From NCBI GenBank assembly GCA_963514005.1, contig OY740804.1, forward strand, positions 2,188,882 to 2,234,000: a stretch of DNA of 45,119 nucleotides. Direction: 5' to 3'. Within the stretch, counting starts at the first letter, position 1. Each line of letters begins with the position of its first letter. The notes under the pieces were generated by a model. It searched no databases. It was not told the DNA's origin and saw only the letters and a program-made list of their open reading frames with translations. The DNA is from Raja brachyura (taxonomy: Eukaryota). Shown piece by piece: positions 5,247 to 28,720 of this stretch. Both the position numbers and the translations under genes were made by a program.

Positions 5247-5552
5247 TGGGGCGCCTGGTTGGCCGCTGGCAGCTGGGATGACGTTGTTCTTGTTAAACGT
5301 TAACGGCTGATGCAATGACATGTTTGGCAGAGGGTGGAGAGGTCACGGCTGACTCCGGCCAATGCTCCGTGTGTGGCAGTGATTGGTTGAAAGTACGGGA
5401 GCGCAGGCAATGAGGGTCAGGAGAAGCCGGGAGTTGGTAAAAAAGTAGTGAGCGATGGCAGGAGATGTCAAGGACAAGACAGGCCCTGTCACCATGTGTG
5501 GAGACACCGGAGCTGGTAACCACCCCTGTGGATCCTTCAAGTGTCTGTGAGT
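5247..5552 (+). promoter_or_regulatory. Putative promoter and non-coding exon 1 of Ig gene copy 1 (TATA mutated)
   Basis: Block shared by all four copies: GTTAAACGTTAAC (5292), TGATGCAA, CCAAT/ATTGG boxes, donors GTAACC (5516) and GTGAGT (5547). The TATAAAA of the other copies reads TAAAAAA here (5438). Confidence 0.55.
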
Positions 5553-5584
5553 GATGGGGGTGGGATTGTCTGTTCACTGTTCCC

Positions 5585-5970
5585 CCAGTTCAGAAGCCTG
5601 ATAGCAGAGGGGAAGAAGCTGTTCCTGAGTCTGGTGATGCGCGCTTTCAAGCTTCTGTACCTTCTGCTAGACAGGACCAGGGAGAAGGAGGAATGACCGG
5701 GGTGGGACAAGTCTTTGATTTTTTTGGTTGTAGATGGAGCCACTGGTGGGGAGTGTGGTCCGTGTGATGGACTGGGCTCCATCCACAACTCTGCAATTTC
5801 TTGTGGTCTTGGGCTCAGAGCTGTTCCCAAACCTAGTTGTGATGCAACCTGACAGTCTGCTCTCCATGGTGCATCTGTAGAAGTTTGTAAGAGACATTAG
5901 AGACTTGCCGTATTTCCTTGGTCTCCAAGGAAGTATATGCATTGGTGTGTCTCCTTGGCTGCCACTTTAA
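5585..5970 (-). mobile_element. Rex1/Babar-like LINE 3' fragment (also 22270-22395, 25060-25445, 40460-40670, 42230-42505)
   Basis: Degenerate RT C-terminus LTNFYRCTMES.LSGCIT.WFGN ... KDLSHPGH ... [26 protein letters not shown]. Confidence 0.75.
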
Positions 5971-6114
5971 TGTTGTTGGTCAATGACAGGTCAAAGCAAC
6001 TTAAAATAAACCAGGCAGGAGCTGAAGAGGCTGCACAGTGACATTGCCCAGTGTGGTGGCAGCAGCTTCAGAGAATGTCATCATGAATCCTACTATTGTT
6101 TTACCCACAGGAGC

Positions 6115-6642
6115 ATGGGACTACAGAGATGGATAGGATTCATGGTCCTTGTGGAAATGGTGTGGCAAGTCTCCGGAACTGGAACAGGTCCGATCTCCAG
6201 AGAATGGGGAGAGGAAGCAAAGTTGCCCGGGTGGAACGCACGGGCTCCTCGGCAGGGCAATGAAGATCGGCTTCCAGAATGCATGGGCAAGCCAGGTTCT
6301 GACAGTGATCAGCCTGTTAAAACTTGATATAATGTGATCATTGCATCTCCGGGTGGTCCTGTAACTCTGTACTGTAAAATATCCAAAGATTACGGTGAAC
6401 TGAGATCTGTTTTGTGGAGTTAAGATGGTGTTTCCATTGCCAGATATAATGATAGGAACGTTACGTATTATCAAGGGTCTGATGTCCATTACAGGTTCGT
6501 GCATGAAAAAGTGCACATGCATCCGGACGCCTCGTTGCTGCTGACACGGACACAAGAGGACGATGAAGCAATATATTCCTGCATTTGGACCACTTCTAGT
6601 CAAGGGAATTGTGAAGTAGAGACCTGGCTGTTAAAGGTGTGA
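6115..6642 (+). pseudogene. Secreted single Ig V-type domain precursor, copy 1 (two in-frame stops)
   Basis: Acceptor TTTTACCCACAG lies just before the ATG. Reading through TGA (6325) and TAA (6421) gives leader...RAPRQ, then VTLYC...VLWS*DG...DASLLLTRTQEDDEAIYSCIWTTSSQGNCEVETWLLKV*. Confidence 0.85.
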
Positions 6643-6689
6643 ATGCTTCCACTGATTCAGCAGGTCTGTCCCAGGATCAGTAGTAAAGT

Positions 6690-25026: not shown

Positions 25027-25539
25027 ATGGGGGTGGGATTGTCTCTGTTCACTGTTCCCCCAGTTCAGAAGCCTGATAGCAGAGGGGAAGAAGCTGTTCC
25101 TGAGTCTGGTGGTGCGTGCTTTCAAGCTTCTGTACCTTCTGCTAGACAGGACCAGGGTGAAGGAGGAATGACCGGGGTGGGACAAGTCTTAGATTTTTTT
25201 GGTTGTAGATGGAGTGACTGGTGGGGAGTGTGGTCCGTGTGATGGACTGGGCTCCATCCACAACTCTCTGCAATTTCTTGTGGTCTTGGGCTTAGAGCTG
25301 TTCCCAAACCAAGCTGTGATGCAACCCGACAGTCTGCTTTCCGTGGTGCATCTGTAGAAGTTTGTAAGAGACATTGGAGACTTGCCGTATTTCCTTGGTC
25401 TCCAAGGAGGTAGATGCATTGGTGTGTCTCCTTGGCTGCCACTTCACATTGCCCAGTGTGGTGGCAGCAACTTCAGAGAATATCATCATGAATCCTACTG
25501 AGTTGCAATAAGGTGACCCATTGTTTTACCCACAGGAAC

Positions 25540-26040
25540 ATGGGACTGCAGAGATGGATAGGATTCATGGTCCTTGTGGAGATGGTGTGGCAAGTCTCCG
25601 GAACTGGAACAGGTCCGATCTCCAGAGAATGGGGAGAGGAAGCAAAGTTGCCCGGGTGGAACGCACGGGCTCCTCGGCAAGTTAACAAACAAAAAACTCC
25701 AGAATGCAGTGTTAAGCCAGATTTGACCAAGATGACGAAGATGACGGCACGCAAGGGTAGTTCTGTTGCGCTACCCTGTGAAATAACCAGAGAGAAGGAT
25801 GGACCCCAGCATTTTGAGGTCACCTGGAGGAAAGGGAAGGTGACACTGGGCGTGTTTACTAAAGGGAAAGGTCCAATCTATCCAGGGGGACCCGACCGCT
25901 GGAGGTTCATGGATCCAAACGTGGTTGATGCCTCGTTGATCGTCACGGGTGTACGCGAGACTGATGCTGGGATGTATTCCTGTACTTGGTCCACTAGCCA
26001 AGGGGAATGTAGACTAAATGTCAAGCTGGCAGTGAAGTGA
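25540..26040 (+). CDS. Intact secreted single Ig V-type domain precursor, copy 3 (166 aa)
   Basis: Hydrophobic signal MGLQRWIGFMVLVEMVWQVSG and pro-segment ending RAPR|Q. Ig motifs G.SV.LPC, VTW, DASL.V.GV...DAGMYSC. Extra Cys before strand A and in strand G. Stop directly after the domain. Confidence 0.85.
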   Translation: MGLQRWIGFMVLVEMVWQVSGTGTGPISREWGEEAKLPGWNARAPRQVNKQKTPECSVKPDLTKMTKMTARKGSSVALPCEITREKDGPQHFEVTWRKGKVTLGVFTKGKGPIYPGGPDRWRFMDPNVVDASLIVTGVRETDAGMYSCTWSTSQGECRLNVKLAVK

Positions 26041-27429
26041 AACCTCCCACTGATTCAGCACAGACCCCTCCAAGTGTCAGGAGCAACAGGCAGTGGCAGG
26101 TCAGCACAAACACAATAACATCCTTCATTATAAACTTGACACACTTAGGCCAACAACAGCATTATATATTGTAGTCACTGAATTCATCATGAGGGGAATA
26201 GAGGGGTGGACACTAAGCATCTTTTACCTGGGGTACGGGAATCAAGAACCAAGGGACATAAATTTAAGGTGAGAGGGGCAAGATTTAATATTAACCTGAG
26301 GGGCAATATTTTCACTCATGGGGTGGTGGGTTTATGGAACTGTCCGGTGGGGCGGGAACTGTAACAATATTTAATACACACTTGCTACAGGGAAAGGTTT
26401 AGGGGGATATGGGGTGAACACAGTGCAATGGGACAGACCCTGCTTGCACCGGTAAATGTACCATTAATGGAAATAAACTCTCTTGAAGACAGCCGGTGGT
26501 GTGAGTGATTCTTTGTGCGCCAGCATTGAAGTTGGGTGTGAACTTTGTGCAACTCTTGCTCACTACGGGCAGCATCGCCGGGTTCTATGAGCTGTGTCCA
26601 TTATTGGTCATGACCACACAGGGACGGAACAACATGTGGAAAATCAGGAGACTGCAGATGTTGCGAACAGGGACAAAAGTAAAGGGGAATGTTTTTCAGG
26701 AACAAAACAGGAACAAAAGTAAAGGCAGATGACACAACAGTAGGCGGGTTTGCAGATAGTGGAGATGGTTGTGAAAAATTGCAGCAGGATCTTGAAATAT
26801 TGGCCAGGTGGGCTGAGGAACGGTTGATGGAATTTAATACAGAGTAATGTGAGGTGCTGTATTTGGGGGTGTCCAACATGTGCAGGACCTACACAGTGAA
26901 TGGCCCGGCTCTGGGGAGTGTTGTAGAGCAGAGGTTTGGAGGGGTATGGACCAAACACAGGCAGGAGAGACTATTGCAGCTGGGACATGTTGACCAGTGT
27001 GGGCAAGTTGGGCTGAAGGGCCTGTTTCCACGCTGTATCACTCTGTGACTACTACACTATGACATTAAATAAATAATGATTATAAAATGAAACTCCACAT
27101 AAATCTCACCTTCTCCTCTGGCTGTATACACAGCACACTCATTGACTGCAGCAGATACAATGAATGTCACACTGGTGGTACCAGGGCACCTCTGGAAAAT
27201 GTTCTTCTCAAGATGTGATTGAGAAGACGGTGTAACATAGAACATGGAACAGTACAGCACAGGAACAGGCCCTTCGGCCCACAATGTCCGTGATGAACAT
27301 GATCACCATGGAAAATTGGTTCTGACTGTCTACCCTATCTGTATCTCATACTTTTATAACTTGTGCAAGAGGCCAATGCAAGGGAGGCACAATGGCGCAG
27401 AGCTAGTGTTGCTGCCTTCCAGCGCTATG

Positions 27430-27735
27430 TGTGGGGCGCCTGGTTGGCCGCTGGCAGCTGGGATGACGTTGTTCTTGTTAAACGTTAACGGCTGATGCAA
27501 GGACACGTTTGGCAGAGGGTGGAGAGGTCACGGCTGACTCTGGCCAATGCTCCGTGGGAGGCAGTGATTGGTTGAAAGTACGTGAGCGCAGGCAATGAGG
27601 GTCAGGAGAAGCCGGGAGTAGGTATAAAAGGGGCGAGCGATGGCAGGAGATGTGAACAAGACCGGCCTCGTCACCCTGTGTGGAGACTCCGGAGCTGGTA
27701 ACCACCCCTGTGGATCCTTCAAGTGTCTGTGAGTG
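27430..27735 (+). promoter_or_regulatory. Putative promoter and exon 1 of Ig copy 4
   Basis: GTTAAACGTTAAC (27477), CCAAT and ATTGG boxes, TATAAAA (27623), conserved donors. Confidence 0.6.
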
Positions 27736-28220
27736 ATGGGAGTGGGATTGTCTCTGTTCACTGTTCCCCCAGTTCAGAAGCCTGATAGCAGAGGGGAAGA
27801 AGCTTTCCTTGAGCCTGGTGTTGCTCGAATGACAGATGTGGGACAAGTGATGGAGTCATACAGCGAGACCTTCGACCCAACTTGCCCGCGCCCACCAACT
27901 TGCCCCATCAAAACTAGACCCACCTGCCTGCTTTTGGCCCTTACCCTTCTAATCCTGCCCTATCAATGTACCTGTCGAACTGTTTTTTAATCATTGTGAT
28001 AGTACCTGCCTCAACTACCTCTTCCGGCAGCTCGTTCCAAACAACCTCCACCCTTTGTGTATAAAAGTCACCCCTCAGTTTCCCATTAAATCTTTCCCCC
28101 CCTCACCTTAAACCGATGTCCTCGGGTTCTCGATTCCCCAACTCTGGGCGGGTTCAGAGAATGTCATCATGAATCCTACTGAGTTGCAATAATGTGACCC
28201 ATTGTTTTACCCACAGGAAC

Positions 28221-28720
28221 ATGGGACTGCAGAGATGGATAGGATTCATGGTCCTTGTGGAGATGGTGTGGCAAGTCTCTGGAATTGCAACAGGTCCGAT
28301 CTCCAGAGAATGGGGAGAGGAGGCAAACTTGCCCGGGTGGAACGCACCTGCTCCTCGGCAAGTCAATGAAGATCCAAATCCACAATGCAGTGTTAACCTC
28401 GCTCCGGACAAGATGAGATGGACGGAGGTGACGGCCAGTAAGGGTGGTTCTGCTCAGCTATCCTGCAAAATGCCCAAAGAAGATGGTGCAGCCGATAAAG
28501 TTGTGGTGCTGTGGACGAAAGGAAAAGACACGATCGCCGTGTTTACTGACAGGAAGGGTGCGCAATATCCAGGGTCAACCGGACGCTGGAAGTTCATGAA
28601 AGCAAACGTGGTTGACACACGGGACGCCTCGTTGGTCCTGGCGAGGCTGGAAAAGGATGATGCTGGGAAATATTCCTGCGCTTGGCTAGTTAATAACGTG
28701 CCTTGTAAACAAAACACCAA
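28221..28720 (+). pseudogene. Ig V-type precursor copy 4, truncated in the last strand
   Basis: Open from the ATG through DAGKYSCAWLVNNVPCKQNTK. Homology then stops a few codons early and the shared 3' flank is missing; the ORF runs on through unrelated repeat sequence to 28892. Confidence 0.8.

What the first reader, a model, noticed from the sequence alone, without database searches (positions are those of the whole stretch)
5247..28720. Cluster of secreted single-Ig-domain genes with a constant prepro leader and a hypervariable mature domain
Seen: four paralogues (6115-6642+, 21344-21877-, 25540-26040+, 28221-28720+). The 47-aa leader is almost identical (copy 3 vs 4 differ at 4 residues), and promoter and intron blocks are highly similar. 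The V-type Ig domain that follows is only roughly 45% identical between copies 3 and 4 by hand alignment, and less between the 1/2 and 3/4 groups. Similarity drops just after R-x-x-R|Q and resumes at the stop (TGA..CTCCCACTGATTCAGCA). Signal peptide and domain share one exon, with no TM segment, C domain or RSS, unlike Ig/IgNAR/TCR V segments. Established: a conserved prepro region with a divergent mature region is typical of toxin and antimicrobial peptide families. Inference: a family of ~120-aa free Ig domains under diversifying selection (mucosal defence, venom or reproduction). I do not recognise the family.
Basis: partly seen in the sequence, partly recalled or inferred. Interest (0 to 1): 0.9.

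Follow-up and report, generated by a model that had tools for sequence, protein, structure and literature searches.

The report
Fast-evolving secreted single-Ig proteins of skates
This skate-type genome holds an apparently undescribed family of 16 genes, most of them among its chitinase genes, each predicted to secrete one small antibody-like domain whose predicted binding surface is changing unusually fast, likely to catch changing microbes or parasites.

Summary
The genome has 16 copies: 15 inside the chitinase cluster of contig C24 and one 25 Mb away. Twelve have intact frames. In the window only copy 3 is intact: copies 1 and 2 carry stops and copy 4 is cut short. Relatives are unnamed genes in two skates and a 'nectin-1-like' protein of an electric ray; no longer or membrane form was found. 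Each gene has a TATA box, a probably non-coding exon, and one exon for signal peptide, short pro-piece and a four-cysteine V domain most like nectin/PVR domain 1. Positive selection is shown: copy 3 and its twin differ by 19 amino-acid-changing and 0 silent bases; site-model LRT is 43.5. Selected sites sit on the CDR-like loops and the GFCC'C'' face. The constant leader is likely homogenised DNA (gene conversion), not a toxin-style constraint. Tissue and ligand are unknown; a secreted decoy or binder of non-self ligands at a mucosal surface is the best guess, reproduction the main rival. It fails membership tests for nectins, Ig/IgNAR/TCR, UrIg, PSG and VCBP.

The parts
5436..5546 (+). copy 1: degenerate TATA (GGTAAAAAAG) to end of exon 1 (donor GT at 5547)
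6115..6642 (+). copy 1 coding region, pseudogene (stops at 6325 and 6421); domain type shared with Leucoraja P0006 and Rhinoraja P0004 (65-66%)
7240..7506 (+). copy 1 conserved 3' block with AATAAA (7279-7284) and GT-rich element, likely poly(A) site
20972..21221 (-). copy 2 conserved 3' block with AATAAA (21199-21194)
21344..21877 (-). copy 2 coding region, type E, pseudogene (TGA at codon 21); three intact twins lie in the next duplicated units
22437..22480 (-). copy 2 TATA and shortened exon 1 (44 nt from TATA to donor; no upstream ATG)
24914..24920 (+). copy 3 TATA box (TATAAAA)
24921..25019 (+). copy 3 region from TATA to splice donor; exon 1, likely 5' UTR
25020..25535 (+). copy 3 intron, GT..AG, 516 nt, largely repeats
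25540..25602 (+). copy 3 predicted signal peptide (residues 1-21; judged by hydropathy and small residues at -3/-1, SignalP not available)
25603..25677 (+). copy 3 predicted pro-piece (22-46) ending R-A-P-R; disordered in the model
25678..26040 (+). copy 3 mature V-type Ig domain (120 aa, pI 9.5, Cys56/80/148/157, Trp96) and stop; the only intact gene in the window; type A, under strong positive selection
26433..26692 (+). copy 3 conserved 3' block with AATAAA (26472-26477) and GT-rich element
27623..27728 (+). copy 4 TATA and exon 1
28221..28892 (+). copy 4, type B: homologous to 28721, then broken; frame reads on 56 residues through unrelated DNA; no 3' block. Leucoraja orthologue P0003 (87%) ends normally
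39532..45119 (-). 3' part of a GH18 chitinase gene (CBM14 exon 39532-39867; catalytic DxDxE exon near 44654-44821) that is co-duplicated with the E/A/B genes in four ~30-kb units

Best explanation
These genes form a batoid family of small proteins predicted to be secreted as single V-type Ig domains, likely derived from a nectin/PVR-type first domain, whose predicted binding surface is under positive selection, and which likely act as soluble decoys or binders of fast-changing non-self ligands (microbial, viral or parasite adhesins) at a mucosal surface such as the gut. Shown here: gene anatomy, copy number, absence of TM/C/RSS parts, V fold, positive selection and its clustering at one end of the domain. 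Inferred: secretion, removal of the pro-piece at P-R|Q, an extra Cys56-Cys157 bond, gene conversion as the cause of the uniform leader, nectin ancestry, the ligand class and the tissue. Confidence in anatomy plus selection is about 0.9; the figure below is for the decoy/defence function.
For: 16 copies by three independent searches. Copy 3 vs its twin at C24:2247497: 19 nonsynonymous, 0 synonymous in the domain (Fisher p 0.006); 19/357 domain bases vs 23/4941 non-coding bases of the same block (p 4e-12). Site models on 8 intact sequences: M0 omega 1.64; M2a 41% of sites at omega 3.3, LRT 43.5. Holds without gap-flanking columns (LRT 31.5) and in the five group II sequences alone (40.6); type A omega about 12. 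Sites with posterior >= 0.95: 7 of 29 in apex loops vs 0 of 22 in far-end loops; 5 of 14 outward GFCC'C'' positions vs 0 of 10 ABED positions. Best structural and profile matches are nectin-1, PVR, CAR, JAML; several are listed in complex with viral proteins. Next-best matches in this genome are nectin-type V exons. The Narcine member keeps A-x6-G and T-Y-P as those exons do (their role as nectin/PVR 'lock and key' is recalled). A soluble nectin-1 V domain can block HSV infection (PMC3285515, abstract). Bat PSGs, some with one Ig domain, show the same pattern and are proposed decoys (PMC5594555, passages). All 67 GH18 matches lie in C24:1.72-2.45 Mb, around and between these genes. Type A mature domains are cationic (net +5 to +12).
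Against: No tissue or ligand evidence at all. Linkage to chitinases shows shared duplication, not shared expression; the gut role of vertebrate chitinases is recalled. One intact copy lies 25 Mb away with no chitinase seen among the ORFs scanned there. Types B and C are fairly conserved between species (87% and 81%), and E and B domains barely differ between units (3/390 and 1/360), so diversification is not family-wide now. The skate copies have lost the T-(F/Y)-P motif (0 of 20 skate sequences), so they may not mimic a nectin. Nectin leads the fold list only narrowly (Z 15.4 vs 14.3 for CD200R/CD200), and the V-domain tree could not be rooted. The same abstract notes that soluble nectin-1 V can also mediate infection. 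Reproductive proteins give the same selection signature (recalled).
Confidence: 0.45

Rival explanations
1. Reproductive proteins: secreted into seminal fluid, sperm-storage tubules or egg coat and driven by sexual conflict or gamete recognition.
For: Same anatomy and selection signal. Found so far only in batoids, which fertilise internally (recalled). Nectins act at Sertoli-spermatid junctions in mammals (recalled).
Against: No expression data point to gonads. Several ancient domain types are kept side by side in two species, which suits a panel of binders more than one sweeping recognition protein.
Confidence: 0.27
2. Soluble ligands for the skate's own expanded nectin-like or paired immune receptors (PSG-like immune modulators or competitors), co-evolving with those receptors.
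For: Closest fold and closest in-genome relatives are nectin-type V domains, found on C26, C51, C882 and C1034. Selection includes the GFCC'C'' face.
Against: Skate copies lost the T-(F/Y)-P motif. Domain types are only 26-58% alike, too diverse for one receptor.
Confidence: 0.13
3. Chemical signals or skin-mucus proteins (pheromone-like identity cues).
For: Small size, tandem array, conversion and positive selection resemble known protein pheromone families (recalled); charge ranges from net -15 to +12.
Against: No evidence of skin or cloacal expression; I recall no V domain used as a waterborne cue.
Confidence: 0.07
4. Venom or toxin components.
For: Only the conserved-leader, variable-mature pattern.
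Against: The species with members (skates, an electric ray) have no sting (recalled). The leader pattern is explained by homogenisation. No toxin among the listed matches.
Confidence: 0.03
5. Neutral decay or local hypermutation: redundant copies drifting in a repeat-rich region.
For: 4 of 16 copies are broken and one lacks exon 1; three orphan promoter remnants; silent sites in the domain are more diverged between types (27%) than the 3' block (13-16%).
Against: Omega is significantly above 1. Type A domains have 0-1 silent changes against 18-23 replacements. Core Cys, Trp and D-x-x-x-Y-x-C are kept out to Narcine.
Confidence: 0.05

Closest known systems
Nectin / poliovirus receptor family, domain 1
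   Same: V fold (Foldseek E 1.7e-9 and VIA Z 15.4, rmsd 1.8 over 106 residues to nectin-1 D1); about 30% identity to skate nectin-type V exons; A-x6-G and T-Y-P in the Narcine member; NCBI's automatic name for that member is 'nectin-1-like'.
   Different: No C domains, TM or tail; signal peptide in the same exon as the domain; pro-piece; two extra invariant cysteines; tandem expansion with positive selection.
Pregnancy-specific glycoproteins / secreted CEACAMs of bats and horse (PMC5594555, passages read)
   Same: Secreted, clustered, sometimes a single IgV domain, under diversifying selection, proposed decoys. It works like these.
   Different: Different gene plan (PSG: leader, IgV and IgC exons; here one coding exon); canonical B-F cysteines present (CEACAM N domains lack them, recalled); no CEACAM among the listed top matches.
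UrIg / UrIg2 of elasmobranchs (PMC12227049, passages read)
   Same: Germline, non-rearranging V-domain proteins of cartilaginous fish; UrIg is secreted and proposed to be innate.
   Different: UrIg has a VJ domain followed by C1 domains, and UrIg2 a split leader; here no J motif, no C domain, unsplit leader, and a chitinase-cluster location.
VCBPs of amphioxus and Ciona (recalled)
   Same: Secreted, germline-diversified V domains tied to chitin-binding function in the gut.
   Different: VCBPs fuse two V domains to a chitin-binding domain. Here V genes end at their own stop and poly(A) block; CBM14 belongs to neighbouring chitinases.
Carp SITR (PMC3031540, abstract read) and skate MDIR (recalled)
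   Same: Soluble Ig-superfamily immune proteins of fish from multigene families (SITR).
   Different: SITR has two Ig domains and a CD300-like V domain; MDIRs are CD300/TIM-like and mostly membrane-bound (recalled). This family has one nectin-like domain.
Conotoxin, antimicrobial-peptide and snake PLA2 gene families (recalled)
   Same: Conserved leader and introns with a fast mature region.
   Different: The payload is an Ig domain, and the uniform leader appears to come from conversion between paralogues.

Membership tests
Nectin/PVR family | N-terminal V domain of nectin type | tested here: met
   Top matches; hhalign probability 96% to two skate nectin-type exons. The lead over other V domains is small.
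Nectin/PVR family | Two C-type Ig domains, TM segment and cytoplasmic tail | tested here: not met
   In-frame stop at the domain end in 14 of 16 copies and a poly(A) block in 13 of 16; all 10 named relatives end there or within 19 residues; search for longer forms found none among 8000 candidates (weak).
Nectin/PVR family | A-x6-G and T-(F/Y)-P interface motifs (recalled) | tested here: inconclusive
   Both in Narcine; A/G-x6-G in types A and B only; T-(F/Y)-P in 0 of 20 skate sequences.
Ig / IgNAR / TCR V segments | Recombination signal 3' of V | tested here: not met
   0 of 16 copies (heptamer <= 1 mismatch, nonamer <= 3, spacer 12 or 23 +/- 1).
Ig / IgNAR / TCR V segments | Leader split by an intron; J motif (F/W)GxG | tested here: not met
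   Leader and domain in one open frame; J motif in 0 of 16.
UrIg / UrIg2 | VJ domain followed by C1 domains | tested here: not met
   No J motif, no C domain; definition from PMC12227049. Sequences were not compared directly.
CEACAM / PSG | Leader exon, IgV exon, IgC exon; CEACAM-type N domain | tested here: not met
   Single coding exon with four invariant Cys; PSG gene plan from PMC5594555.
CEACAM / PSG | Sequence or fold closest to CEACAM N domain | tested here: inconclusive
   Not among the listed rows; no direct comparison made.
VCBP | V domains fused to a chitin-binding domain | tested here: not met
   CBM14 exons belong to GH18 genes, kilobases from any V gene.
CD300 / MDIR / SITR | CD300-type V domain; two domains (SITR) or TM (MDIR) | tested here: inconclusive
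Secreted pro-protein | Signal peptide cleavage, secretion and processing at R|Q | not testable with these tools
   Hydrophobic core 1.8-2.3 over 11 residues; P-R-(Q/K) in 23 of 25 proteins listed, Narcine included. No SignalP, no proteomics.

The most novel reading that the evidence does not exclude
Batoids have a germline repertoire of free, two-disulfide single V domains ('innate nanobodies') made from a nectin domain. Gene conversion keeps one promoter-leader cassette in front of many old and new binding domains, selection reshapes the CDR-like loops, and the genes are co-amplified and co-expressed with gut chitinases, giving a split, jawed-vertebrate counterpart of the VCBP system.
Probability: 0.22. 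Interest if true: 0.87.

Novelty: new variant of a known kind. Interest (0 to 1): 0.72.

Why it matters
It adds a family to the immune or reproductive inventory of cartilaginous fish that databases hold only as 'uncharacterized' or 'nectin-1-like'. Selection is unusually strong and well controlled: neighbours in the same duplicated block are static. It shows a way to get the toxin-like 'constant leader, variable payload' pattern by conversion of a cassette. If the ligands are foreign, it is a non-rearranging single-domain binder repertoire beside IgNAR in the same animals, and a natural source of 120-residue scaffolds. Tissue RNA-seq in the little skate, which has eight annotated members, would settle much of this cheaply.

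Tried and rejected
Expression: no RNA holder listed. Four runs of unrecorded kind covered intron and flanks like DNA and showed no exon 1-exon 2 joint among the listed rows (15 shown, 795 not); this says nothing on expression. The tool for opening the contig behind P0009 was closed. Complex of a type A with a type E domain: no answer (score 0.00). Metagenome scan: 115 pattern hits, none confirmed. ESM Atlas: only generic V-set clusters. Earlier findings of this scan: none. NCBI's 31-residue N-terminal extension is doubted: its ATG lies 17 nt after the TATA start; of 14 copies with TATA and donor the first exon-1 ATG is in frame in 5, out of frame in 5, absent in 4; but P0009 does carry it. V-to-CBM14 fusion rejected (stops, poly(A) blocks, distance). 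L017 and L018 rejected as members: nectin-type exons with splice donors, one followed by a C exon. The V-domain tree with outgroups has long branches and gives no root; the protein leader tree has no well-supported branch. Neighbours of the far copy: 59 of 85 unique ORFs scanned, no Pfam match. The nucleotide comparison of chitinase unit 4's first exon was out of register and is ignored. CEACAM and CD300 are absent from the fold lists, which excludes nothing. Three papers sought for the nectin motif were not held. Not in print as far as searched: (listings only; the six LOC ids gave 0 papers); on the leader pattern gave 0. Supplements were not searched and could hold expression values for these ids.
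Full report
Observation. Leaders are 83-100% identical over residues 1-46 and mature parts 30-44%. Only copy 3 (25540-26040) is intact. Copy 1 has stops at codons 71 and 103, copy 2 at codon 21, and copy 4 breaks after K-Q-N-T-K and reads 56 residues into unrelated DNA. 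Pfam V-set passes its cut-off for copies 2, 3 and 4.

Extent. The window is C24:2188882-2234000 of a 2.7-Gb genome. Copy 3 finds 18 places: 16 family members and 2 nectin-type exons. The far copy's domain and the leader DNA each find the same 16. Fifteen lie in C24:2.195-2.382 Mb and one at 27.486 Mb. Twelve have intact frames, one of which lacks exon 1. A unit of about 30 kb, E(-) A(+) [B(+)] chitinase(-), occurs four times, its main blocks 94-99% alike. All 67 GH18 matches in the genome fall in C24:1.72-2.45 Mb, so the family sits inside the chitinase cluster. Caveat: units 3 and 4, and the two F copies, are so alike that some could be uncollapsed haplotypes; the count of 16 may be high.

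Relatives. Two word-based searches gave the same 7 clusters, all skate: 8 'uncharacterized' Leucoraja genes, one Rhinoraja gene and one Logan protein. That the window is from a skate is inferred from these. The profile search of 1.84 billion representatives gave 2584 hits and listed 150; only 2 match the whole profile in one stretch: P0007 and P0084. P0084 is Narcine bancroftii XP_069798310.1, 'nectin-1-like'. It has the same signal peptide type, P-R-Q, four cysteines and no TM, and its 16 best matches in this genome are the 16 copies. So the family spans at least two batoid orders. Weaker single-domain relatives could lie below the listed 150, so sharks and stingrays are untested. No longer form was found (weak).

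Gene plan. GTATAAAA precedes 14 of 16 copies. A donor follows 44-107 nt later, then an intron (516 nt in copy 3, 488 in copy 4), an acceptor 4 nt before the ATG, the whole coding region, and in 13 of 16 a conserved AATAAA plus GT-rich block. Exon 1 is likely untranslated: NCBI's upstream ATG is 17 nt from the TATA start, ahead of the usual start site (established knowledge), and is in frame in only 5 of 14 copies. Against this, P0009 carries the extension. P0009 sits on a 900-nt contig; 606 coding bases plus an intron of 488 nt or more would not fit, so it is probably a spliced transcript. I could not open that contig, and no RNA run was listed. Transcription is therefore hinted, not shown. 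There is no RSS or J motif in 16 of 16 copies.

Protein. The model (mean pLDDT 67.7; residues 1-51 under 50, most of the domain 78-92) is a V-set sandwich. Cys56, 80, 148, 157 and Trp96 are invariant in 18 sequences. A Cys56-Cys157 bond tying the N-terminal strand to strand G is inferred from V-domain geometry, not measured. Nectin-1 D1, PVR, CAR, nectin-3, CD200R and JAML lead the structure and profile searches, with small margins. Skate nectin-type exons are the next-best genomic matches (E about 1e-4; hhalign 96%). Narcine shares A-x6-G and T-Y-P with them, and in a V-domain tree the four nectin exons join through Narcine (96/95), but long branches prevent rooting. Nectin ancestry is likely, not proven.

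Selection on the domain. Copy 3 and its twin in unit 2 differ by 19 replacement and 0 silent bases; against the unit 3 copy, 23 and 1 (p 0.006 and 0.011). In the same block non-coding DNA differs at 23/4941, the B domain at 1/360, and the E domain at 3/390 against 39/2491 in its flanks. The chitinase catalytic exon shows no amino-acid change in 6 of 6 unit pairs. If copy 3 and its twin are alleles, this is balancing selection rather than paralogue divergence. Site models (my own implementation, empirical Bayes posteriors) used 8 of the 12 intact sequences, one per near-identical set: omega 1.64 overall; 41% of sites at 3.3; LRT 43.5. The test holds on 86 columns away from gaps (31.5) and on five group II sequences (40.6). 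Recombination can inflate such tests; the pairwise counts do not depend on a tree. Selected sites cluster at one end: 7 of 29 apex-loop sites vs 0 of 22 far-end sites, and 5 of 14 outward GFCC'C'' positions vs 0 of 10 ABED positions (loops from the model's DSSP, faces assigned by V-set convention without coordinates). A looser, post hoc loop definition gave 10 of 32 vs 2 of 87.

Why the leader is constant. Between domain types in the cluster, four-fold sites differ at 33/639 in the leader and 161/587 in the domain (pairs are not independent; single pairs p 0.006-0.017). E vs F and E vs G introns differ at 9/540 and 8/540, their domain four-fold sites at 4/30 and 5/26. Leader omega is 1.04 (7 sequences, low power). 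Domains group by type across species (B 87%, C 81%, D 65-66%, A 63-73%), yet residue 21 is Ala in all 8 Leucoraja proteins and Gly in all 9 in-cluster copies compared here, and a Leucoraja-only leader variant spans three domain types. This is the mark of conversion of the promoter-intron-leader cassette. Local hypermutation is less likely because recent type A changes are almost all replacements. The signal peptide pattern is still kept out to Narcine, so some protein constraint exists.

Mechanism. Most likely (0.45): secreted, trimmed at P-R|Q, and acting as a panel of soluble binders or decoys for changing foreign ligands at a mucosal surface. This rests on the selection pattern, on nectin-type domains being frequent virus receptors (titles; PMC3285515 abstract), on the PSG parallel (PMC5594555, passages) and, weakly, on linkage to chitinases. 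Reproduction (0.27) fits the same data. Nothing here shows tissue or ligand.

Comparison. It works like secreted CEACAM/PSG decoys and recalls VCBPs (recalled), SITR (PMC3031540, abstract) and UrIg (PMC12227049, passages), but fails a defining feature of nectins, Ig/IgNAR/TCR, UrIg, PSG and VCBP; CD300-like families could not be compared directly. Seven literature searches (listings only) showed no description of the family; most subscription papers and all supplements were unseen. Verdict: real, apparently undescribed, a new variant of a known kind. Interest 0.72.

Noticed in passing
window 12033-17296 (+): DIRS-like retrotransposon with three open frames (gag-like, RT with a Dam-like end, tyrosine recombinase) and matching termini; a 69%-identical relative with a split RT frame lies at about 33072-37943. 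Several more lie in the cluster.
   Followed up: partly
G000:C24:1.72-2.45 Mb: All 67 GH18 exon matches of the genome lie here: a large chitinase cluster, with one gene copied four times in tandem plus an inverted copy with the same catalytic exon at 2.11 Mb; one gene near 2.399 Mb has D-I-D-W-Q in place of D-I-D-W-E.
   Followed up: partly
window 28722-28892 (+): The read-through tail of copy 4 (and of its twin at C24:2250178) has a hydrophobic 19-mer (hydropathy 1.81); it could be an accidental membrane anchor. The two copies differ by one base in the domain.
   Followed up: partly
G000:C24:2122404(-), 2162923(-), 27479373(-): Promoter remnants of the family with no gene behind them: traces of lost copies.
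   Followed up: partly
window 5292-5304, 22614-22626, 24832-24844, 27477-27489: A palindrome GTTAA-ACG-TTAAC 67-131 nt before TATA in 13 genes, usually with two CCAAT boxes. It resembles an HNF1 site (recalled, imperfect); a weak hint of gut, liver or kidney epithelium.
   Followed up: no
L017 (C1034), L018 (C882), L075 (C51), L076 (C26): Nectin-1-like V exon on C26 and three similar nectin-like V exons on smaller contigs, suggesting a separate expansion of membrane nectin-like genes.
   Followed up: partly
L016 (G000:C24:27486288): The far copy is strongly acidic (net -15), has a 7-residue shorter pro-piece and a less homogenised leader (92% DNA identity).
   Followed up: partly
L002 (G000:C24:2247497): This type A copy has a fifth cysteine in the FG loop, which could form a dimer.
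   Followed up: no
window 32161-32860: 60-bp minisatellite, 8.5 copies; 2874-5192 has an inverted copy at 29201-32159.
   Followed up: no
window 17680-18264 (+): Fragment of an LTR retrotransposon integrase (H2C2 and rve).
   Followed up: no
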